Shown here: positions 10,700 through 44,583 of the stretch, piece after piece
Layout: each line of letters opens with the position of its first letter
How positions within the stretch are numbered: the first letter of the stretch is position 1
NCBI GenBank assembly: GCA_944393135.1
Contig: CALXZC010000001.1
Coordinates: 9,501 to 73,500, forward strand
Direction of reading: 5' to 3'
Source of the DNA: an uncultured Clostridia bacterium
GTDB taxonomy: Bacteria > Bacillota > Clostridia > TANB77 > CAG-508
Length of the DNA: 64,000 nucleotides
Position numbers and translations under genes: made by a program
Notes under the pieces: model-generated
Databases searched by the model: none
Told to the model about the DNA's origin: nothing
Seen by the model: the letters and a program-made list of their open reading frames with translations, nothing else

Positions 10700-11140
10700 A
10701 TGTTAGTTTTTATAGGATGTGGAAAGAAGAAAAATTATTTAACGTGTGAGGCTAAAAATATGTATTTAGGAAATTATTTTTCAACTTGTTTACAGTATGC
10801 CAAAACATTAACAAGTGAAAACAATATTTATATATTATCAGCAAAATACGGTGTTTTACATCTTAACGATATTATTAGTCCTTATAATTTTACTTTAAAT
10901 GAAGCTACCAAAGAACAATACACAGAATGGAAAAATAAAGTTTTAAATCAATTTAAAGTTTTAAATATTACAGGTAAGGAAGAAGTTACTTTTTTATGTG
11001 GTAAAAATTATTATAAAGAATTATTATCTTATTTCGGTAATGTACATATACCTTTAAAGGAGTATAGTGGAATGGGATATCAAATTAGTTTTATGAAAAA
11101 ACAAATAATGAAAACTAAACGTTCATTATTTAACATATAA
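10700..11140 (+). CDS. hypothetical protein inside the deazaguanine cluster
   Basis: 146-aa ORF tightly packed between queC and the transporter gene. Confidence 0.5.
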   Translation: MLVFIGCGKKKNYLTCEAKNMYLGNYFSTCLQYAKTLTSENNIYILSAKYGVLHLNDIISPYNFTLNEATKEQYTEWKNKVLNQFKVLNITGKEEVTFLCGKNYYKELLSYFGNVHIPLKEYSGMGYQISFMKKQIMKTKRSLFNI

Positions 11141-11191
11141 AAGTTGTATGCAAATCCGACCAACTATAAAAATACTAGGAGGAAGTTAATA

Positions 11192-11863
11192 ATGTTAGAA
11201 AAATTAAGAAAAATAAAATTATCTAATTGGTTAGTAATAATCACAGCTTGTTATGTAGCAGGTTCTGTATTACAAAATATACTAGCTGTAAAAACATTTG
11301 GAACAAGTGTACTAGCTATTACAACTGGTGGAACTTTAATATCTTGGTTAGTTTTTGCTTGTATGGATGTTATAACAGAAGTATTTGGTCGTAAAAAAGC
11401 TATAAAAACATTTACAGGTAGTGCTATTTTTAATATATTATTTAATGTAATATGTTGGATTGCAATAATTATACCTGGAACAAGTACTTTTATAAATGAT
11501 GCTTATACAATAGTATTAGGAACAGGATGGAGAATAGCGATAGCATCTATAATAGCCTTTTTATTAGGAAATTTTGTTAATACTCAAATAATGTACATTA
11601 TGAAAGTACACAGTAAAGATTCTAGAAATTCTAAAGGATTTATGGCAAGAGCTATCCTTTCTACAGTATTAGGACAACTTGTTGATAATGGATTATTTTA
11701 TTTAGTTGCATTTGCTCCTTTAGGAATTGCTGGAACAGTAGAAAATTCTTGGCAAATGATTGGTACATTAGTATTATGTACTACATTAATCGAAACATTA
11801 GTGGAATCTGTTGTTTCTCCTTTAACAGCTAAATTTGTTAAACATTTAAAAAATATACAATAA
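11192..11863 (+). CDS. yhhQ: queuosine-precursor transporter, YhhQ/VUT (DUF165) family
   Basis: Multi-pass membrane protein with MDVITEVFG and QLVDNGLFY motifs; ATG 11192 follows TAGGAGG. Confidence 0.65.
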   Translation: MLEKLRKIKLSNWLVIITACYVAGSVLQNILAVKTFGTSVLAITTGGTLISWLVFACMDVITEVFGRKKAIKTFTGSAIFNILFNVICWIAIIIPGTSTFINDAYTIVLGTGWRIAIASIIAFLLGNFVNTQIMYIMKVHSKDSRNSKGFMARAILSTVLGQLVDNGLFYLVAFAPLGIAGTVENSWQMIGTLVLCTTLIETLVESVVSPLTAKFVKHLKNIQ

Positions 11864-11870
11864 TATTATA

Positions 11871-11910
11871 ATGTTAGAGTTTAAGTGATTAATATTTTAA
11901 ACTCTAACAT
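11871..11910 (+). terminator. hairpin after transporter gene
   Basis: 14-bp stem ATGTTAGAGTTTAA / TTAAACTCTAACAT. Confidence 0.45.
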
Positions 11911-11939
11911 ATGTTTAATATTTAGGAAAGGATATTTTT

Positions 11940-12464
11940 ATGGATAAAAATTTAAGGGATGAAAAAGATATAACAGTTGTTAAAGAGTATGTAACTTGGA
12001 CCGATGTTGATGTTTTTATAAACAGTTTAGATACTTTTATACAACAAAATACGTTTAACGGTGTGTACGGTCCAGCAAGAGGTGGATTATTATTTGCTGT
12101 AATGATATCACATAAGTATAATTTACCATTTTTAGGAGCACCGCAGAAAGGTTGTTTAGTTGTAGATGATATTATAGATACAGGTAAAACAGCTGAAGCT
12201 TGGAAGGATAAAGGTTACACTATAGCAAGTATGTATTATAAAAAGAATAATTTAGTGGAACCCGATTTTTGGGTAAAAGAAAAAACAGATAAATGGATAG
12301 TATTTCCTTGGGAAGAAGTAAGAACAACAAAGGATATAAATGAAGCTGAAAATTTTTTATTAAGTACAATAGAAGAAGCCTATCCGATACAAAGTAGTTC
12401 TTCTTTTTTAGAGGATTACAATAAAGCTATAACAGCTTTAGAAGTAGTAAAAGGAGGACAATAG
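11940..12464 (+). CDS. purine phosphoribosyltransferase-like protein
   Basis: PRPP-binding motif CLVVDDIIDTGKT preceded by GPARGG. Confidence 0.7.
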   Translation: MDKNLRDEKDITVVKEYVTWTDVDVFINSLDTFIQQNTFNGVYGPARGGLLFAVMISHKYNLPFLGAPQKGCLVVDDIIDTGKTAEAWKDKGYTIASMYYKKNNLVEPDFWVKEKTDKWIVFPWEEVRTTKDINEAENFLLSTIEEAYPIQSSSSFLEDYNKAITALEVVKGGQ

Positions 12465-12466
12465 AA

Positions 12467-12943
12467 ATGAATAAATATATGCAAATGGCAAATGAATTAA
12501 GTAAACAAAATTTATTAACAAATGCTGGAGGACCCTTTGGTGCTGTTGTAATAAAAAATAATACAGTTGTAGGTGTAGGAAATAATCAAGTATTAAAAAA
12601 TAATGACCCAACAGCACACGCAGAAGTAATGGCTATTAGAAACGCTTGTAAGAATTTAAATACTTATGATTTAACAGGTTGTGAATTATATACAAGTTGT
12701 TATCCTTGTCCTATGTGTTTATCCACAATTATATGGGCTAATATTAAAACAGTATATTACGGTAATACAAAAGAAGATGCTGCCGATATAGGATTTAGAG
12801 ATGATATGATATATAAATTTATACAAAATATAGATGATGAAAATTGTACAAGTAGCATATTAAAAACTATTCCTATGGATAGAGAGGAAACTATACAAGT
12901 ATTTAATAAATTTAAAAATAAAGAAGATAAAACAATATACTAA
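12467..12943 (+). CDS. guaD: guanine deaminase-like (CDA-fold, GuaD type)
   Basis: GGPFGAVV...DPTAHAEVMAIR...SCYPCPMCLSTIIWA closely matches the Bacillus GuaD pattern as I recall it. Confidence 0.8.
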   Translation: MNKYMQMANELSKQNLLTNAGGPFGAVVIKNNTVVGVGNNQVLKNNDPTAHAEVMAIRNACKNLNTYDLTGCELYTSCYPCPMCLSTIIWANIKTVYYGNTKEDAADIGFRDDMIYKFIQNIDDENCTSSILKTIPMDREETIQVFNKFKNKEDKTIY

Positions 12944-12947
12944 GGTT

Positions 12948-13664
12948 GTGATACAAATGAGTTATAAAAATTTACAACATTATAGACATACAGTTCATAG
13001 ATATTTAGATGCTATATGGTTAGTAGGTTCTAGTAAAAAGAAAGCTAGGAGTACAATGTATAAATGGTTAAGTACTAAAATGAACTTAGATATAGAAGAC
13101 ACACACGTATCTAAATTTAATCGAGAACAATGTAAACAAGCTATAAAAATATTAAGACCTATGTATATACAGTTATATGGACAAGACCTTACATATAAAA
13201 AGAAAAGAAAGGAAGAAATAAATATGAATTTACAAACAACTTGTACACAAACTTTTGAAACAGCACATATATTACCGAAAGCTAATACTAAATATGATGG
13301 TTTATATAGTAGAACATATAAATTAAAAGTTACAGTAGAAGGACCTCAAATACAACCAATAGGAATGATAATTCCACAAGAGGAATTAAAAGAAATATTA
13401 AGTAAAGCGGTTCCTGACAGGCAATTTATTTTTAATATAAATAATCCTGTATGTAAAGAAATTGCTTATATATTACAAAGGTATGATATACCATATATAG
13501 AATTAGATAAAGAAGTAGTAGCAGAAAATTTAATACAATATTTAAAAGATAAAATAGAATATTATTTATATGAAGTATACCAATATTCTAAAGATATAAA
13601 AATAGTTGAAATGGAATTATCTTCAATTAAGGATGAATATTCTACAAAATTAATATTAAAATAG
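12948..13664 (+). CDS. hypothetical protein; C-terminal half PTPS/QueD-like but lacks the HGH motif
   Basis: FETAHILPKANTKYDGLYSRTYKLKVTVEGP resembles the QueD N-terminal strand pattern; start uncertain (GTG 12948 or ATG 12957). Confidence 0.45.
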   Translation: MIQMSYKNLQHYRHTVHRYLDAIWLVGSSKKKARSTMYKWLSTKMNLDIEDTHVSKFNREQCKQAIKILRPMYIQLYGQDLTYKKKRKEEINMNLQTTCTQTFETAHILPKANTKYDGLYSRTYKLKVTVEGPQIQPIGMIIPQEELKEILSKAVPDRQFIFNINNPVCKEIAYILQRYDIPYIELDKEVVAENLIQYLKDKIEYYLYEVYQYSKDIKIVEMELSSIKDEYSTKLILK

Positions 13665-13676
13665 GAGGATAATATT

Positions 13677-14025
13677 ATGTATTATGTATCAAAGAGAATG
13701 GAAATTGCTGGAGCACATAATTTAACTTTAAATTATGAAAGTAAATGTCAAAATTTACATCGGACATAATTGGATAGTAACTGTATATTGTAAGTCAAAA
13801 ACATTAAACGAAAATGGTATGGTTGAAGATTTTACTAATACTAAAAAGATGATACACGATAAATTAGACCATCAATATATAAATAAAGTTCCAGAATTAC
13901 AAGGAATAAATCCAACAGCAGAAAATATAGCAAAATGGATATGTGAACAAATAGTAACTTGTTATAAAGTTACAGTACAAGAATCTGAAGGAAATATAGC
14001 AACTTATGAGGAGGACGAAGATTAA
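13677..14025 (+). CDS. queD: 6-carboxytetrahydropterin synthase, read through a +1 shift at CGG 13761
   Basis: MYYVSKRMEIAGAHNLTLNYESKCQNLH then cgg; skipping the C gives GHNWIVTVYCKS..., restoring the C..LHGH Zn motif; RBS TAGGAGG. Confidence 0.8.
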
Positions 14026-14754
14026 ATGAAAGTTGTTGAAATTTTTAATAGTATAGATGGAGAAGGAAAAAGGGCTGGAGAATTAACAACATTTATTAGG
14101 TTATTTGGATGTAATTTACGTTGTGTATATTGTGATACACCTTATGGTTATGACATAGAACAAAGCGATTATAGAGAAATGTCTATAACAGAAATATTAA
14201 AGGAATGTAAAAAATATGCAACACATAATATTACTTTAACAGGAGGAGAACCTTTAATTCACGAAGATGTTCAATATTTATTAAGAGCTTTATCCGAGAA
14301 CAATTATAATGTAAATGTTGAAACAAATGGGTCTGTGTCTATAAAGAAATATTTTAATTTTGACGGTACTCCTAAGGATGAATATAAAAATGTTTGGTTT
14401 ACAGTTGATTACAAATGTCCATATTCACAGATGTCACAAAATATGGATATGGATAATTTTGATGTTAATAAATATAATTATGAAAATATAGTTTATAAAT
14501 TTGTAGTAGCTAATTTACAAGATTTAGAAATGGCAAAAGAAATAATAACAAAATATATTTTTCAAAAAAATGAACATATAAATAAAAATTATAATAATAT
14601 AGTATATTTAAGTCCTGTGTTTGGAGAAATAGAACCTAAAACAATAGTAGAATATTTACAAAATACACCTGAGTTAATAAATTCATTTACACCTGTTAGA
14701 GTACAATTACAATTACATAAATTTATTTGGCCTGTAGAACAAAGAGGAGTATAA
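14026..14754 (+). CDS. queE: 7-carboxy-7-deazaguanine synthase (radical SAM)
   Basis: IDGEG...FIRLFGCNLRCVYCDTPY cluster motif, LTGGEP. Confidence 0.9.
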   Translation: MKVVEIFNSIDGEGKRAGELTTFIRLFGCNLRCVYCDTPYGYDIEQSDYREMSITEILKECKKYATHNITLTGGEPLIHEDVQYLLRALSENNYNVNVETNGSVSIKKYFNFDGTPKDEYKNVWFTVDYKCPYSQMSQNMDMDNFDVNKYNYENIVYKFVVANLQDLEMAKEIITKYIFQKNEHINKNYNNIVYLSPVFGEIEPKTIVEYLQNTPELINSFTPVRVQLQLHKFIWPVEQRGV

Positions 14755-14771
14755 GGAAGGTGTTATTAAAT

Positions 14772-15503
14772 ATGAGTTTAATTGAAAAAATGTGTAATAA
14801 ATTAGGTTATTATAGACCGGCATCAGGTAAGTATTATTTATCTAAAGAAAATAATATAAATGTAGTTGTAGATGAAAAACAATTTAAAGAAGTACATAAA
14901 TTTGATTATAATGGAGTAAAACAAGCTACAACTATGTTATTAACAGCTATGGGGCAGGATATATCTAGACCTGGGTTAGTAGAAACTCCAAGAAGAGTTG
15001 CTGGGTACTGGAAAGAATTGTTAGAAGGAGAAAATTATACTAATCAAGAAATAGCCGATATGTTTAGAAAAGATTTTCAAGTTAGTTTTGACCCAATAGT
15101 ATTTAAAGAATGTAAAAATGTATTTTCACATTGTGAACATCATTTAGCTTTAATGTTTAATGGAACAGTATATGTAGCATATATTCCAACTTATTGGAAT
15201 GGTAAAGATAACAGTGATGGATATAGAGTTATTGGATTAAGTAAAATACCTCGAATAGTAGATATGTGTTCTAAGAGATTACAATTACAAGAAAAGTTAG
15301 TTGCCGATATAGCAGAGTGTATAGAATTAGCAACAGGTTCAACACAAGTGTATGTAGAGGCAATATTAGACCACGGTTGTGTATCTGCAAGAGGTGCTAA
15401 GTCAAGTGGTATTACAGAAACAACATATATGTCTCCAGCATTAAGAAATAATAAAGAAGCTAGACGTGAAATACAAAATAAAGTAATTATAACAAAAAGT
15501 TAA
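14772..15503 (+). CDS. folE: GTP cyclohydrolase I
   Basis: GLVETPRRVAGYW, CEHHLA, SKIPRIVD...RLQLQEKL motifs. Confidence 0.9.
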   Translation: MSLIEKMCNKLGYYRPASGKYYLSKENNINVVVDEKQFKEVHKFDYNGVKQATTMLLTAMGQDISRPGLVETPRRVAGYWKELLEGENYTNQEIADMFRKDFQVSFDPIVFKECKNVFSHCEHHLALMFNGTVYVAYIPTYWNGKDNSDGYRVIGLSKIPRIVDMCSKRLQLQEKLVADIAECIELATGSTQVYVEAILDHGCVSARGAKSSGITETTYMSPALRNNKEARREIQNKVIITKS

Positions 15504-41184: not shown

Positions 41185-41234
41185 ATCATTATAGGTGTTA
41201 TAATATATGTAGATATAAAAAGTTCCTTTTCTTT

Positions 41235-41309
41235 TGATAGGTAGCCTAGAGGGTTAGGCATAGGGCTCATAACCCTAATACGTGGGTTCGAATCCCACCT
41301 TATCAGCCA
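41235..41309 (+). tRNA. tRNA-Met(CAU), initiator-like, CCA encoded (cargo of cassette 1)
   Basis: Manual cloverleaf: TGATAGG TA GCCT AGAGGGTT AGGC A TAGGG CTCATAA CCCTA ATAC GTGGG TTCGAAT CCCAC CTTATCA G CCA. Three G:C pairs close the anticodon loop, as in tRNA-fMet. Confidence 0.85.
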
Positions 41310-41461
41310 TTTGTTACTTTTCATCTATATTCAAATTAGGGTATAAAAAGTTCCTTTTTGAGGGTAGTAACCCACAATTTTTTGGAAATTGAGTAATATT
41401 ACTTTTCACCCTATTTAATTTAATAATTAATTTTATACAACATAAAAAGTTCCTTATAACA

Positions 41462-41566
41462 ATTAGGGTCAAGCAGCCTGTCACTGGTTCGAGTCCAGTC
41501 TAGTGTAAATATTTATAAACGCGACTATATTTACGCTAGTAGCTCAGTTGGTAGAGCAGCCGCACA
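41462..41566 (+). tRNA. circularly permuted tRNA-like gene (cargo of cassette 3), anticodon not assignable
   Basis: T arm ACTGG TTCGAGT CCAGT, acceptor 3' strand CTAGTGT and A (41483-41507) lie upstream of acceptor 5' strand ACGCTAG and D arm TA GCTC AGTTGGTA GAGC (41533-41557); 7/7 acceptor pairs including one G-U. Confidence 0.5.
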
Positions 41567-41622
41567 TATTTTACTTTTCGTTGTATATATGTAATAATAG
41601 GCATAGAAACTTCCTTTAAAAA

Positions 41623-41665
41623 TGGTTAATCTTGGTTCGAATCCAAGAGTAGTGATTTAGCTACT
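41623..41665 (+). ncRNA. closed acceptor/T-arm minihelix (cargo of cassette 4)
   Basis: CTTGG TTCGAAT CCAAG T arm followed by hairpin AGTAGT-GATTTA-GCTACT; no D or anticodon arm. Confidence 0.35.
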
Positions 41666-41724
41666 TTAGTTAGTTTCAGCCTATATAATATTAAAAATGG
41701 TGGTATAAAAAGTTCCTTTATTTT

Positions 41725-41877
41725 GGTCTTGAAAACCGGTACATTGTAGGTTCGAATCCTACCTCCCCCACCAAACCCTTTAATTAGGGTTAATTCCAAC
41801 ATTATATTAATTTAGTGTGTTAAGTTTAAATATTTAACATACTAAATATGGGGGAGTGGCGGAATGGTAGACGCGCC
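41725..41877 (+). tRNA. circularly permuted (or split) tRNA gene, anticodon UGA (cargo of cassette 5)
   Basis: 3' part 41725-41773 is GGT CTTGAAA ACCGG TACATT GTAGG TTCGAAT CCTAC CTCCCCC A CCA. 5' part 41850-41877 is GGGGGAG TG GCG GAATGGTAGA CGC G CC. Acceptor pairs 7/7. Joining CC+GGT completes the anticodon stem CCGGT/ACCGG. Confidence 0.6.
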
Positions 41878-42013
41878 TTACATACTTTTCACCACATATT
41901 ATATACAATAGTGAGTTATAAGATGTTCCTTTTAATCCCTGATAAGGATTAGCCTTTTAAGCTAAATTATATTTACATCTCAACTCACTTTTATTTATTT
42001 AAAGGAGGATAAT

Positions 42014-42504: not shown

Positions 42505-44583
42505 GTGATGAGAGATATGTTAGAAAAACAAATTATATCTTGTTTAAGATTATTTAAAGGTTATTTGCCTAATTGTACAAATGAATTAGACGTATGTAAA
42601 ACAGTGTTGGAATTTAAAGAAGATATGTTAAAAAGAGGCTTATTATTTGTAACAAAAACAACAGAGGATATATCGCCAAAAGTTGTAGAGTTGGCTGTAA
42701 ATATGTATGGAGTTAAAGAAGAGGAATGGAATCAAACATTTCATAAATCATTTGCAACAGTAAGAGATACCGATATAGAAACATTAGTAGTGCAACAAAT
42801 AGTACATTATATAACAACCTATGGATTTGAAGCATTAGGTATATATGATAAAGACACAGTATATATTCCAAAAGAGGAACTAGAAATACCGGAATTAGAC
42901 AGGGATATACCTTTAGTTGTTATTAAAGAATTAACAGAGGAAGAATTAGGTGAAAAATTATTAACATTATTAACATCAGGAATAGCCTTAAGTGAACAAA
43001 CAGTACAAGACGTTATGAATTTAAGTGATTATATACCTAAAACTAAATTTGATGATATTAAAAATAAAGAATTAAGAACAGCATTGTATGATAAATATAA
43101 TATTGTTCCAAGAAATAATGTAGAATTTTTAAGATATATGATTTATAAATTAACTAGTTCAACATTATTAATAAAGAATCAACAAACAATAAAAACTTTA
43201 AAAGAAGCTAATACAGAACAAGTGTATAATTTATTACATAGTTATCTAACTAATACATCAAATGGATATATAAAATTAGCGGAAATCTTCTTAAGATATA
43301 AGGATTTATTTTTAGCTTTAAAAAGGTCCGATGATAGTGTAGATATATTTAGTAAAACATCTTTTAAAGAAAATAAACAAATTAATAAAATTATTAATAA
43401 AATTAGTAAATTAGCTAAAAAATATCATAAACCTTTACAACCACAAATATTAGACCAATTAACACAATTATCTAGTACAAAAGTAATGGAAAAAGAATCT
43501 GAAATATTAGAAGAATTAAATAAGGTAACAATATTTAGAGAGTTAAGAATATTAAATGGTTTATTATATAGATTACAAAATCCTGAAAATATGTTATATA
43601 AGATAAGAAATGGAAAAGGTTATGTAAAATCATCTAAAAATTATAAGGTTGTTGATAGTAATTATAGTAAATATCAATATATTTACAATTTAGTATATAA
43701 ACATTTAGTACAAAGATTAACACTAATATTAAAAGATAAAACAGCTTATATTCCAGAAAATATAAATTATGCCTTACCAACATCTGAAAAACAATTTAAT
43801 GAAAATATACCTGAAGGCACATATATAGAGATACCTAGAACAACAAATATGGTTATAGGTGTACATTGGAAAAATACAAGTGGTAGAGTTGATTTAGATT
43901 TACACGCACAAAATAAAGACCAACAATTTGGATGGAATACAAGCTATAGAAGTGTAAGTGGTTCTGAATTTTATTATAGTGGTGATATTACAAGTCCAGA
44001 TGTGGAATATGGAGCAACAGAAGTATTTTATATAGGTCAAAGTTTAGAACAAAAAGCTTTTTTACTAACATTAAATGATTATTCAAGTCCTAATGAAGAT
44101 ATACCTTATGAGTTTTTTGTAGCAGAAACAGATAGAGAACAAGTGGATAAAAGTTATATAGTAAACCCAAATAAAGTTAAATTTATAACTACAGAAAAAT
44201 TTAAATATATACATTCTACAAAACAATTTGAATCTAGACAAAAAGTATTAGCATTTATAGTTATTAATAAAGATAGTATAAAAGTATATTTTAATGATTT
44301 TTCTTTAGGAAATTCTATTGTTACAAGACAAAATAATATTACACAAGGTGCTTTTAAATGTTTACAAATAGAGGCAGATAATAGATTAATGTTAAAAGAT
44401 ATTTTAGTAGATTGTGGTGTTAAATTAGTAGATAGTCCAACATATGATGAATTTATTAAAGATGAAACAATGTTAGACAAGGATGGACAACCTGTATACA
44501 AAAAGATAACACATAAAGTCGATTACGATTTATCATTAGAAAATATAGATAAAACAACTTTTATAAATTTATTAAATAGTTAA
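42505..44583 (+). CDS. large hypothetical protein; C-terminal TerD-like segment possible
   Basis: 692-aa ORF; VHWKNTSGRVDLDLHAQ...YYSGDITS...GATEVFYI resembles the TerD-domain pattern. Confidence 0.5.
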   Translation: MMRDMLEKQIISCLRLFKGYLPNCTNELDVCKTVLEFKEDMLKRGLLFVTKTTEDISPKVVELAVNMYGVKEEEWNQTFHKSFATVRDTDIETLVVQQIVHYITTYGFEALGIYDKDTVYIPKEELEIPELDRDIPLVVIKELTEEELGEKLLTLLTSGIALSEQTVQDVMNLSDYIPKTKFDDIKNKELRTALYDKYNIVPRNNVEFLRYMIYKLTSSTLLIKNQQTIKTLKEANTEQVYNLLHSYLTNTSNGYIKLAEIFLRYKDLFLALKRSDDSVDIFSKTSFKENKQINKIINKISKLAKKYHKPLQPQILDQLTQLSSTKVMEKESEILEELNKVTIFRELRILNGLLYRLQNPENMLYKIRNGKGYVKSSKNYKVVDSNYSKYQYIYNLVYKHLVQRLTLILKDKTAYIPENINYALPTSEKQFNENIPEGTYIEIPRTTNMVIGVHWKNTSGRVDLDLHAQNKDQQFGWNTSYRSVSGSEFYYSGDITSPDVEYGATEVFYIGQSLEQKAFLLTLNDYSSPNEDIPYEFFVAETDREQVDKSYIVNPNKVKFITTEKFKYIHSTKQFESRQKVLAFIVINKDSIKVYFNDFSLGNSIVTRQNNITQGAFKCLQIEADNRLMLKDILVDCGVKLVDSPTYDEFIKDETMLDKDGQPVYKKITHKVDYDLSLENIDKTTFINLLNS

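What the first reader, a model, noticed from the sequence alone, without database searches (positions are those of the whole stretch)
41721..41883. Cassette 5 is a circularly permuted (or split) tRNA gene whose two parts abut inside the anticodon stem; hybrid Leu-like/Ser-like features
The 3' part (anticodon arm remainder, 6-nt variable region, T arm, acceptor 3' strand CTCCCCC, A73, CCA; 41725-41773) lies 76 nt upstream of the 5' part (GGGGGAG TG GCG GAATGGTAGA CGC G CC; 41850-41877). The acceptor strands pair 7/7. Joining ...CGCGCC to GGTCTTGAAAACCGG creates a perfect anticodon stem CCGGT/ACCGG with loop CTTGAAA (anticodon UGA), for a 77-nt tRNA. The junction positions are 11 nt after H1 and 6 nt before H1'. 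These are the same distances that delimit the mature ends of the ordinary tRNA in cassette 1. The spacer holds two hairpins, AACCCT-TTAATT-AGGGTT and a 12-bp stem at about 41811-41846. It also has a weak TTAAGT, 17-nt spacer, TAAATA promoter-like element ending just before G1, so separate transcription (a split tRNA) is also possible. Permuted tRNA genes are established in Cyanidioschyzon merolae, some green algae and an archaeon, and split tRNAs in Nanoarchaeum; I am not aware of any in bacteria or phages. The D arm and A73 look like bacterial tRNA-Leu. The anticodon arm matches tRNA-Ser(UGA). The long variable arm needed by SerRS is absent, so the charging identity is an open question.
Basis: partly seen in the sequence, partly recalled or inferred. 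Interest (0 to 1): 0.88.

Follow-up and report, generated by a model that had tools for sequence, protein, structure and literature searches.

The report
Permuted tRNA mimic on handle RNA
The "permuted tRNA" is real sequence, but it is one unit of a widespread, apparently undescribed family of phage small RNAs that mount tRNA parts on a conserved stem next to an unknown protein, so it is more likely a tRNA mimic than a decoding tRNA.

Summary
At 41725-41773 lie an anticodon arm, T arm, acceptor 3' strand and ACCA; 76 nt downstream lie the acceptor 5' strand and D arm. The rotated sequence is called a 77-nt tRNA-Ser(tga) by ARAGORN. Orthologues keep this order with compensatory acceptor changes.

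It is not a stand-alone permuted tRNA gene. All six cassettes share a handle: P0, AUA/C internal loop, a 6-bp P1, then UCCUU. I found about 300 such cassettes in 141 phage-like loci, all on the coding strand. Nearly all abut homologues of the 692-aa ORF at 42505-44583. That protein has a TerD-like domain, no Pfam or PDB match, and sits inside tRNA/tmRNA clusters, including in cultured cyanophages S-CRM01 and S-CBWM1.

Payloads are tRNA parts: anticodon-like hairpins, T-arm minihelices, whole tRNAs and permuted tRNA bodies. In cassette-5 orthologues the "anticodon" is UGA, GCA, CGA, degenerate or absent, while N73-CCA is always kept.

The best reading is a YrlA-like tRNA mimic, probably cut by RNase P into two pieces. 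It is not a YrlA member: the Ro-binding motif and a Ro60 gene are missing. Re-ligation into a decoding tRNA is unsupported.

The parts
41209..41987 (+). Array of six handle cassettes: C1 41209-41328, C2 41337-41413, C3 41436-41585, C4 41597-41684, C5 41699-41896, C6 41912-41987
   Evidence: Python handle scan. P0 and P1 differ between cassettes by compensatory changes. The same six-cassette order is kept in L130, L132, L134 and L328.
41699..41718 (+). C5 handle, 5' side: P0 strand G-GTGGT (41699-41704), internal-loop AUA (41705-41707), P1 strand AAAAGT (41708-41713), conserved UCCUU (41714-41718)
   Evidence: P0 and P1 are recovered in the MFE fold.
41725..41739 (+). Anticodon-arm-like hairpin GGT-CTTGAAA-ACC, then GG, which pairs in trans with CC at 41876-41877
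   Evidence: The loop varies among orthologues.
41740..41762 (+). 6-nt variable region TACATT and T arm GTAGG-TTCGAAT-CCTAC
41763..41773 (+). Acceptor 3' strand CTCCCCC, A73 and encoded CCA
   Evidence: N73-CCA is kept in all 8 C5-type cassettes although spacers range from 7 to 79 nt.
41774..41849 (+). 76-nt spacer closing the acceptor stem, with hairpin 1 (41774-41791) and hairpin 2 (41811-41846)
   Evidence: Both hairpins appear in the MFE fold. L132 and L134 keep them with different sequences.
41850..41877 (+). Acceptor 5' strand GGGGGAG, U8 G9, 3-bp D arm GCG-GAATGGTAGA-CGC, G26, C27 C28
41884..41896 (+). C5 handle, 3' side: P1' ACTTTT (41884-41889), single C (41890), P0' ACCAC-A (41891-41896)
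42505..44583 (+). 692-aa conserved neighbour (N-terminal helical domain plus TerD-like beta-sandwich); candidate protein partner of the handle RNAs
41186..41198 (+). Extended -10-like TGTTATAAT just upstream of cassette 1; candidate promoter for the whole array (seen by eye only)
   Evidence: Sequence. The motif recurs upstream of the arrays in L130, L132 and L134. The two-hexamer scan did not call it.

Best explanation
Cassette 5 is one unit of a co-transcribed array of 'handle' RNAs. Each unit is closed by a conserved stem: P0, a 3x1 internal loop (AUA opposite C), a 6-bp purine-rich P1 ending in G-U, then UCCUU. The apical position carries a payload built from tRNA parts. In C5 the payload is a whole tRNA body in circularly permuted order. 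The chain leaves the handle and enters the anticodon stem between positions 28 and 29. It then runs through an anticodon-like hairpin, the variable region, the T arm, the acceptor 3' strand and A73-CCA. A structured 76-nt spacer follows, then the acceptor 5' strand, the D arm and nucleotides 26-28, and the chain returns to the handle. Inferred steps: RNase P cuts 5' of G41850 and the 3' side is trimmed to the encoded CCA, as shown experimentally for M. smegmatis YrlA. The product would be a two-piece, tRNA-shaped RNA held together by the acceptor stem and the handle. It is not re-ligated and does not decode. The handle is most likely the binding site of the 692-aa protein encoded downstream. 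The tRNA-shaped payload would then act as a mimic, either a bait or a tether, for factors that recognise tRNA. Candidates include anticodon nucleases, RNase P, modification enzymes and synthetases. Shown here: the architecture, its conservation and covariation, the strand, and the two-way association with the protein gene and with tRNA/tmRNA clusters. Inferred: processing, protein binding and the mimic function.
For: Family membership: all six window cassettes share the handle, with compensatory P0 and P1 changes. In 88 IMG/VR loci there are 194 cassettes adjacent to the protein gene and 45 elsewhere on the + strand, against 0 on the - strand and 1 in shuffled sequence. In 53 GTDB loci there are 60 on + and 0 on -. 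From the RNA side, 30 of 35 cassettes found by a DNA pattern have the protein gene in the fetched DNA, in most cases a few hundred bases downstream, against 1 of 23 chance matches. No other protein family is conserved nearby; the best reaches 15 of 88 loci. tRNA link: the gene sits inside tRNA/tmRNA clusters in S-CRM01, S-CBWM1, L138 and L151. Payloads are enriched in T loops and anticodon-type 7-nt loops, 138 observed against 42 +/- 7 in shuffles. The permuted module is standard in the family: 34 distinct payloads have canonical T and D arms and covarying 7-bp acceptor stems. The end position is irrelevant: non-permuted versions exist in L124, L182, L206/L208 and L257/L258, and L137 has a different permutation point. 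Not a decoder: the anticodon varies or is absent while the body is conserved. Processing: N73-CCA is kept in 8 of 8 C5-type cassettes with spacers of 7-79 nt, and M. smegmatis YrlA gives the precedent (PMC4201824). Cassette 3 hits Rfam YrlA at E = 2.4e-5.
Against: There are no RNA-level data, so transcription, processing and ends are all inferred. Protein-RNA binding rests on synteny alone. The protein has no recognisable RNA-binding or catalytic domain. The handle matches no known protein-binding motif. In the window, C5 keeps a canonical 7-nt CU-NNN-AA loop, and its 165-nt payload is identical in a relative that shows changes in other cassettes (L328). This suggests the anticodon-like loop matters, and a translation-linked role cannot be ruled out. 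About 140 kb of this phage genome was not available, so an RNA ligase or a Ro60 gene could lie there. Cassette 1 carries a genuine tRNA in the same handle, which fits a processing or expression role for the handle as well as a binding role.
Confidence: 0.55

Rival explanations
1. True circularly permuted tRNA gene. The handle brings the precursor ends together, both strands are cut, and the ends are ligated at CC|GGT into a circle. RNase P and 3' trimming then open the circle at the acceptor to give a 77-nt decoding tRNA.
For: The rotated sequence is a valid cloverleaf by ARAGORN. A flanking helix juxtaposes the ends. CCA is encoded. The loop is canonical in the window, L132, L134 and L328.
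Against: The anticodon is UGA, GCA, CGA, degenerate or absent among orthologues that share one body. The body has a Leu-like D arm and A73 and lacks the long variable arm, so it fits neither Ser nor Cys identity rules (established knowledge). The handle has no 3-4-3 bulge-helix-bulge geometry. Pfam finds no RtcB, Rnl or PNK among the 40 ORFs scanned, which include every ORF of at least 206 aa. The same handle flanks 15-30-nt hairpins and a normal tRNA. Non-permuted versions keep the handle where the anticodon loop should be.
Confidence: 0.06
2. Functional two-piece (split) tRNA-like acceptor. After RNase P and CCA processing the two pieces stay paired. The molecule is aminoacylated by an anticodon-independent synthetase, for example LeuRS given A73 and the Leu-type D arm. 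It then serves in translation or as an aminoacyl donor for another enzyme.
For: N73-CCA is conserved. The 7-bp acceptor, T arm and D arm are canonical. The D arm resembles tRNA-Leu (plus established identity rules). Chen et al. raised possible aminoacylation of cleaved YrlA.
Against: Most permuted payloads in the family have closed acceptor stems with no free end. A roughly 12-bp arm emerging at positions 28/29 should clash with ribosomal P-site contacts (inference). N73 varies between A and G among C5-type cassettes.
Confidence: 0.12
3. The handle is mainly a processing and stability signal for a polycistronic RNA array, cut by a host duplex-specific RNase or by the neighbouring protein acting like Cas6. 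The released payloads, including C5, act on their own, for example as decoys for anticodon nucleases.
For: Cassette 1 is a bona fide tRNA inside the handle and must be released. Cassettes are packed 7-20 nt apart behind one promoter. Anticodon-type loops such as CUUUUAA, CUUGAAA and CUGUUAA recur.
Against: In most loci the payload is only a trivial 4-bp hairpin, so there is little to release. Non-permuted versions keep the handle as an internal hairpin where no release is possible. The conserved unpaired AUA/C and UCCUU look more like a recognition surface.
Confidence: 0.17
4. A type III toxin-antitoxin-like pair: the RNA array is processed and bound by the downstream protein to keep it inactive.
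For: The layout is promoter, tandem RNA units, T run, then protein gene in minimal loci. The RNA-protein linkage is tight.
Against: The units are not near-identical direct repeats. The protein is about 690 aa with no ToxN, CptN or TenpN resemblance. The tRNA-derived payloads and the location in tRNA clusters would be unexplained.
Confidence: 0.04
5. Decayed debris of tRNA genes scrambled by recombination, with no function.
For: The parts are hybrid Leu-like and Ser-like. ARAGORN and Rfam do not call it in its native order.
Against: Compensatory changes are seen in the acceptor, P0, P1 and spacer hairpins. The sequence is identical in independent metagenomes. Cassette order is conserved across relatives whose protein is 68-93% identical. 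The fold z-score is -4.97.
Confidence: 0.02

Closest known systems
YrlA Y RNAs (Rfam RF02553), the Ro60/Rsr-bound tRNA mimics of bacteria and mycobacteriophages, especially M. smegmatis YrlA
   Same: Both have a tRNA-like module in the order T arm, acceptor stem, D arm. The RNA ends lie in a stem that replaces or continues the anticodon stem. Both are encoded next to a partner protein gene on the same strand, often with several RNAs in tandem. M. smegmatis YrlA is cut by RNase P in the acceptor loop and carries CCA, giving two bound pieces (PMC4201824). Cassette 3 scores 33.7 bits against the YrlA model.
   Different: There is no GNCGAAN0-1G Ro-binding motif (0 of 214 cassettes have it in the 5' region). 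The handle has a different geometry: a 3x1 AUA/C loop, a 6-bp P1 and UCCUU. No Ro60/TROVE gene was found, and the neighbour is a novel-fold protein with a TerD-like domain. Payloads are modular, ranging from 15-nt hairpins to whole tRNAs. Some units keep an anticodon-type loop. CCA is genome-encoded.
Circularly permuted tRNA genes of Cyanidioschyzon merolae, some green algae and an archaeon (from my own knowledge)
   Same: The 3' part lies upstream of the 5' part on one strand. The rotated sequence is a canonical cloverleaf. Flanking sequences pair to bring the ends together.
   Different: Those precursors use a bulge-helix-bulge motif, the splicing endonuclease and a ligase, and they yield tRNAs with stable identity. 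Here there is no BHB, no ligase was found, and the anticodon is not conserved or is absent. The same flanks enclose non-tRNA payloads.
Two-piece (circularly permuted) tmRNA genes (Rfam RF04321, RF01850)
   Same: The T arm, acceptor 3' strand and CCA lie upstream of the acceptor 5' strand within one precursor. The mature RNA stays in two pieces. Weak Rfam hits cover 41746-41856 (21.1 bits).
   Different: The pair at 3:70 is G-C, not the G-U alanine determinant. There is no tag reading frame and there are no pseudoknots. ARAGORN finds no tmRNA, and the score is below the gathering value of 47.
Type III toxin-antitoxin and CRISPR-like layouts (RNA array directly upstream of its protein partner)
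   Same: A tandem array of small RNA units lies immediately upstream of, and is probably co-transcribed with, a protein gene that it always accompanies.
   Different: Each unit is an inverted-repeat stem with its own sequence, not a direct repeat. The protein is unrelated to ToxN or Cas families. The payloads are tRNA-derived.

Membership tests
Circularly permuted tRNA gene (C. merolae type) | 3' half upstream of 5' half on the same strand; rotation gives a canonical cloverleaf | tested here: met
   ARAGORN on the joined sequence gives tRNA-Ser(tga), 77 nt.
Circularly permuted tRNA gene (C. merolae type) | Bulge-helix-bulge motif (3-nt bulge, 4-bp helix, 3-nt bulge) formed by the precursor ends at the junction | tested here: not met
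   The flanks form P0, a 3x1 loop (AUA/C), a 6-bp P1 and an 11x6-nt loop. No 3-4-3 geometry is present.
Circularly permuted tRNA gene (C. merolae type) | Anticodon and identity elements conserved among orthologues, as expected of a decoding tRNA | tested here: not met
   The anticodon is UGA, GCA, CGA, degenerate or absent in orthologues sharing one body.
Circularly permuted tRNA gene (C. merolae type) | Ligated (circular, then linear) mature product | not testable with these tools
   This needs RNA-seq or RT-PCR. Pfam finds no RNA ligase among the 40 ORFs scanned, which include every ORF of at least 206 aa; the rest of the genome was not seen.
Split tRNA (Nanoarchaeum type) | The two halves are transcribed separately from their own promoters | tested here: not met
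   No + strand promoter is called in the spacer. Orthologous spacers are 7-30 nt.
YrlA Y RNA (RF02553) | tRNA-like module in the order T arm, acceptor, D arm, with the RNA ends in the stem that replaces the anticodon arm | tested here: met
YrlA Y RNA (RF02553) | GNCGAAN0-1G Ro60-binding motif near the 5' end (PMC4201824) | tested here: not met
   No match in 41200-41990. None of 214 distinct cassettes has it within the first 30 nt.
YrlA Y RNA (RF02553) | Encoded within about 4 kb of an rsr (Ro60/TROVE) gene on the same strand | tested here: not met
   No TROVE hit in any window ORF of at least 206 aa. The conserved neighbour has no Pfam hit and no PDB fold match.
YrlA Y RNA (RF02553) | Score at or above the Rfam gathering threshold (69 bits) | tested here: not met
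   C5 has no YrlA hit. C3 scores 33.7 bits.
Two-piece tmRNA (RF04321) | G3-U70 alanine identity, tag ORF, pseudoknots, and a score of at least 47 bits | tested here: not met
   The 3:70 pair is G-C. The score is 21.1 bits over the T arm and acceptor only. ARAGORN finds no tmRNA.
Handle-cassette RNA family (defined here) | P0 (at least 4 bp), ANA opposite one nt (C), 6-bp P1 ending G-U/A-C, UCCU(A/U), apical payload; + strand, adjacent to a homologue of the 692-aa protein | tested here: met
   C5 spans 41699-41896.

The most novel reading that the evidence does not exclude
The array and the downstream gene form a new, widespread class of phage ribonucleoprotein. Modular 'handle' RNAs display interchangeable tRNA parts: anticodon loops, elbows, and whole permuted tRNA bodies with CCA ends. 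A novel-fold protein with a TerD-like domain binds them. The system resides in phage tRNA/tmRNA clusters and works as a programmable set of tRNA decoys or tethers against tRNA-targeting host factors. Cassette 5 would be its most complete payload, a two-piece tRNA look-alike.
Probability: 0.4. Interest if true: 0.85.

Novelty: new variant of a known kind. Interest (0 to 1): 0.72.

Why it matters
Phage tRNA clusters are usually explained by codon usage or by replacing host tRNAs cut by defence nucleases. This finding adds a second layer that seems to have gone unnoticed. There are hundreds of structured small RNAs that reuse tRNA parts on a common scaffold, always next to one uncharacterised protein family with more than 2,000 members. 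The family occurs in cultivable cyanophages (S-CRM01, S-CBWM1), so it can be tested directly. If the RNAs are mimics, they would be a modular RNA-based counter-defence or regulatory system. They would also extend the Y RNA principle, a tRNA mimic on a protein-binding stem, beyond Ro60. The natural occurrence of permuted, non-permuted and differently permuted versions of one RNA architecture is also a clean case of circular permutation in non-coding RNA evolution. For annotation, these cassettes are invisible to tRNA finders and to Rfam 15.

Tried and rejected
- The exact 14-mer of the H1 motif in IMG/VR gave only single chance matches.
- The search for related loci with the two ORFs flanking the array found no relatives.
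- blastn of the array and tblastn of the upstream ORF against GenBank phages found nothing.
- Rfam at gathering and at permissive thresholds gave only tRNA, tmRNA and weak YrlA and tmRNA_permuted hits. No family matches the handle.
- Ro60/TROVE as the partner protein is rejected. There is no Pfam hit for single sequences or for 59 family members. There is no PDB sequence hit and no PDB fold match better than E = 0.08. NCBIfam and PHROGs gave none.
- A K-turn, a bulge-helix-bulge motif and known small ribozymes were considered for the handle. They are rejected on geometry and on the absence of Rfam hits.
- The handle as a tRNA intron in the non-permuted versions is rejected. Removing it leaves no 7-nt anticodon loop (L124), and it is far too small for a group I intron.
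- A DNA-level attC-like hairpin was considered. It is unlikely given the strict strand bias, the G-U pairs, and the promoter-cassette-T-run layout.
- Literature searches on YrlA, permuted tRNA with phage, tRNA mimics and decoys, S-CRM01, and anticodon stem-loop mimics found no description of this handle family. This does not prove it is unpublished.
Full report
**Observation**

The region reads exactly as described. After AAAAGT (41708-41713) and 11 nt come these elements:
- GGT-CTTGAAA-ACC-GG (41725-41739)
- TACATT
- the T arm GTAGG-TTCGAAT-CCTAC (41746-41762)
- CTCCCCC-A-CCA (41763-41773)

A 76-nt spacer with two hairpins follows (41774-41791 and 41811-41846). Then come GGGGGAG-TG-GCG-GAATGGTAGA-CGC-G-CC (41850-41877), 6 nt, and ACTTTT (41884-41889).

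ARAGORN and Rfam see only the ordinary tRNA of cassette 1 in the native order. ARAGORN calls the joined sequence a 77-nt tRNA-Ser(tga). The MFE fold of 41699-41896 contains the flanking helices, the T arm, the acceptor stem and both spacer hairpins. Its z-score is -4.97.

The whole array is base-identical in a contig from another sample (L332). The 165-nt C5 payload is identical in a relative whose neighbouring protein is 93% identical, although that relative shows substitutions in cassettes 2-4. The suggested spacer promoter does not pass the scan.

**The cassettes share a structured handle**

All six cassettes (41209-41987) have the same frame:
- a 5-7-bp outer helix P0 whose sequence differs in every cassette
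- AUA opposite a single C (A in C4)
- a 6-bp helix P1: AAAAGT/ACTTTT in C1, C2, C3 and C5; GAAACT/AGTTTC in C4; AGATGT/ACATCT in C6
- a conserved UCCUU

The payloads are:
- C1: a normal tRNA(CAU)
- C2: two small hairpins
- C3: T arm, closed extended acceptor stem, D arm
- C4: a D-loop-like strand plus a T-arm/acceptor minihelix
- C5: the permuted tRNA body
- C6: two hairpins with anticodon-type loops, CUGAUAA and CUUUUAA

Cassette 3 hits Rfam YrlA (33.7 bits, E = 2.4e-5, below the gathering score of 69). C5 weakly hits tmRNA_permuted over the T arm and acceptor.

**Relatives**

A pattern combining the handle with an early T loop found related arrays in IMG/VR (L121/L123, L124). All three lie upstream of a homologue of the window ORF 42505-44583.

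That 692-aa protein has more than 2,000 homologues, none with a Pfam domain, mostly on ~200-kb contigs. Contigs of close relatives (protein 68-93% identical) carry colinear arrays; L130, L132, L134 and L328 have all six cassettes.

A profile-based scan gave two further sets:
- 80 more viral loci
- 53 loci from GTDB genome bins, mostly gut Bacilli, Erysipelotrichaceae and Clostridia bins, with some cyanobacterial and archaeal bins

**Statistics of the family**

A simple detector was used. It requires P0 of at least 4 bp, ANA, a fully paired 6-bp P1 ending in [G/C]T, TCCT, and one nucleotide between P1' and P0'.
- In 88 viral loci it finds 194 cassettes adjacent to the protein gene and 45 elsewhere on the + strand. 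It finds none on the - strand and 1 in block-shuffled sequence. Eighty of the 88 loci have at least one adjacent cassette.
- The GTDB set gives 60 on + and 0 on -.
- Some features the detector does not require are nearly invariant: C opposite AUA in 227 of 238, U before P1' in 236 of 238, and a purine-rich P1 5' strand. P1 and P0 show many pair types per position.
- Starting from the RNA side, 35 of 58 matches to GGCATARRRAGTTCCTA lie in full cassettes. Thirty of those 35 have the protein gene in the fetched DNA, in most cases a few hundred bases downstream. Only 1 of the 23 chance matches does.
- No other protein family is conserved in the neighbourhood.
- Rfam 15 has no family for these cassettes.

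**The protein and its setting**

The AlphaFold2 model (pLDDT 80.8, pTM 0.78) has a helical N-terminal part and beta-sandwich C-terminal domains.
- Foldseek finds no PDB match better than E = 0.08.
- It finds full-length matches to uncharacterised phage proteins, including proteins of Campylobacter virus IBB35 and Lactobacillus phage LpeD.
- It also finds a TerD-like match for the C-terminal domain.
- Profile searches against PDB sequences, NCBIfam, PHROGs and Pfam (59 members) give nothing.

The protein is therefore not Ro60.

tblastn finds homologues in Synechococcus phages S-CRM01 (g174) and S-CBWM1 (gp22) and in gut phage Phass-1. In the two cyanophages the gene lies inside the large tRNA cluster. 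In L138, L151 and Phass-1 it is next to tRNAs and a phage tmRNA. Handle cassettes are present in all three GenBank phages and flank g174 in S-CRM01; one of them is a permuted tRNA-like unit.

In minimal loci the layout is -10 box, a single cassette with a 15-17-nt hairpin payload, a T run, a ribosome-binding site, then the start codon.

**What the payloads are**

Thirty-four distinct payloads are permuted tRNA bodies. They have canonical T arms, U8-A9, D arms, covarying 7-bp acceptor stems, and a 2-6-bp 'anticodon' stem formed in trans that leads into the handle. Most have acceptor stems closed by 2-9-nt loops.

Small payloads include T-arm hairpins, D-loop-like loops and stable tetraloops. 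Canonical tRNA-type 7-nt loops are enriched about threefold over shuffles. These include T loops and CU-NNN-AA loops such as CUUUUAA, CUUGAAA, CUGUUAA and CUGAUAA.

Five loci carry the same architecture in normal tRNA order, with the handle as a hairpin in place of the anticodon loop: L124, L182, L206/L208 and L257/L258. In L137 the chain break lies in the variable region instead. Where the ends lie is therefore not what matters.

**Cassette 5 and its orthologues**

Eight C5-type cassettes keep N73-CCA after the acceptor 3' strand although the spacer ranges from 7 to 79 nt. The acceptor stem shows double compensatory changes:
- GGGGGAG/CTCCCCC
- GGAGGAG/CTCCTCC
- TGGGGAG/CTCCCCA
- GAGGGAG/CTCCCTC

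The spacer hairpins are kept with different sequences in L132 and L134. The anticodon position behaves differently:

| Locus | 'Anticodon' |
|---|---|
| window, L328 | UGA |
| L132, L134 | GCA |
| L137 | CGA |
| L130 | degenerate loop |
| L126, L151, L138 | no loop; stem fully in trans |

This table draws. The body (Leu-type D arm, A73, no long variable arm) fits neither Ser nor Cys identity rules, which I take from established knowledge. A faithful decoder is therefore unlikely. A conserved free CCA end generated from the loop is likely.

**Comparison with known systems**

Chen et al. 2014 (PMC4201824) define YrlA by three features: a GNCGAAN0-1G motif, proximity to rsr, and a tRNA-like module of T arm, closed acceptor stem and D arm. 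They also show that M. smegmatis YrlA is cleaved by RNase P in the acceptor loop and carries CCA, giving two Rsr-bound pieces.

C5 has that architecture. It lacks the motif (0 of 214 cassettes), an rsr neighbour, and a passing Rfam score. It works like a YrlA but is not a member. It also fails the defining tests for C. merolae-type permuted tRNA genes, for split tRNAs and for two-piece tmRNA (see the membership table).

**Interpretation**

Shown:
- a conserved, covarying, strand-specific RNA family
- its two-way linkage to one protein family and to tRNA/tmRNA clusters
- payloads derived from tRNA
- permutation flexibility

Inferred:
- co-transcription from an extended -10 promoter upstream of C1
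- RNase P cleavage at G41850 and trimming to CCA
- binding of the handle by the 692-aa protein
- a mimic, bait or tether role for the payload

I put about 0.55 on this package. Most of the remainder goes to two alternatives: a processing-signal role for the handle with free decoy payloads, and a chargeable two-piece acceptor. The re-ligated decoding tRNA gets about 0.06.

**Limits**

There are no RNA-level data. Only 64 kb of a ~200-kb genome was seen. The cassette detector is a heuristic, although it was controlled by strand and by shuffling. The literature search covers open-access papers only.

Noticed in passing
window 41436-41585 (cassette 3): YrlA-like unit: T arm, a 13-bp extended closed acceptor stem whose loop keeps AACGCGACT in the window, L130, L126 and L328, and a D arm. 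It hits Rfam YrlA at 33.7 bits (E = 2.4e-5), below the gathering score of 69.
   Followed up: partly
window 41597-41684 (cassette 4): tRNA 'elbow' mimic: a single-stranded D-loop-like AAUGGUUAA, then a T arm and a 6-7-bp acceptor minihelix closed by a 4-nt loop, with no D stem. The P1 helix is compensatorily changed to GAAACU/AGUUUC. The (A/U)UGGUU motif upstream of the T arm recurs in several other loci (L134, L135/L136, L137, L138, L142, L151).
   Followed up: partly
window 41912-41987 (cassette 6): Two hairpins with anticodon-type 7-nt loops: CUGAUAA and CUUUUAA, the latter matching a tRNA-Lys(UUU)-type loop. The CUUUUAA hairpin is kept in L126, L128, L129, L130, L132 and L137. It is a possible anticodon-nuclease bait.
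   Followed up: partly
window 41209-41328 (cassette 1): A genuine tRNA(CAU) sits inside the same handle, 11 nt and 6 nt from P1. Orthologous first cassettes carry UAU (L134) or AAU (L137) anticodons, so it may be an AUA/AUN (Ile) decoder rather than Met.
   Followed up: partly
window 42505-44583: A 692-aa protein of unknown function with a TerD-like C-terminal domain and no PDB fold match. It has more than 2,000 homologues and is always next to handle cassettes. Homologues include g174 of cyanophage S-CRM01 and gp22 of S-CBWM1, both inside the tRNA clusters.
   Followed up: yes
L124 (- strand, about 2800-2960), L182:3830-3960, L206/L208:3620-3750, L257/L258:2790-2920: Non-permuted versions of the same RNA. 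They have normal tRNA order, with acceptor, D arm and anticodon stem, but the handle hairpin (P1'-C-P0'-loop-P0-ANA-P1-UCCU) replaces the anticodon loop.
   Followed up: partly
window 9967-15503: A gene cluster for 7-deazaguanine (preQ0/queuosine precursor) synthesis: QueC, a Vut_1/YhhQ-like transporter, a PTPS/QueD-like protein, a radical-SAM QueE-like protein and GTP cyclohydrolase I. It probably serves DNA or tRNA modification.
   Followed up: no
window 21410-23401: The clamp-loader (DNA_pol3_delta2) gene is interrupted by a LAGLIDADG/Hom_end domain, which is probably an intein.
   Followed up: no
window 5022-5864 and 7507-8163: Two GIY-YIG/NUMOD3 homing-endonuclease-like genes lie among the replication genes.
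   Followed up: no
L138:637-1060, L151:646-1071, L216:8572-9010: Phage-encoded tmRNA genes (Rfam 78-88 bits; ARAGORN gives the tag peptide GNILKQFSNKVKSLFTLNSVAFA) lie in the same tRNA cluster as the handle arrays and the protein gene.
   Followed up: no
L276, L277, L293, L297: Handle cassettes (2-4 per locus) with no detectable homologue of the protein in the fetched flanks. Either the partner is more divergent or these arrays stand alone. L276 comes from a 424-kb contig.
   Followed up: no
window 29220-29978 and 26441-27067: A proteasome-subunit-like ORF and a sigma-70 region-2 ORF are present in this phage.
   Followed up: no
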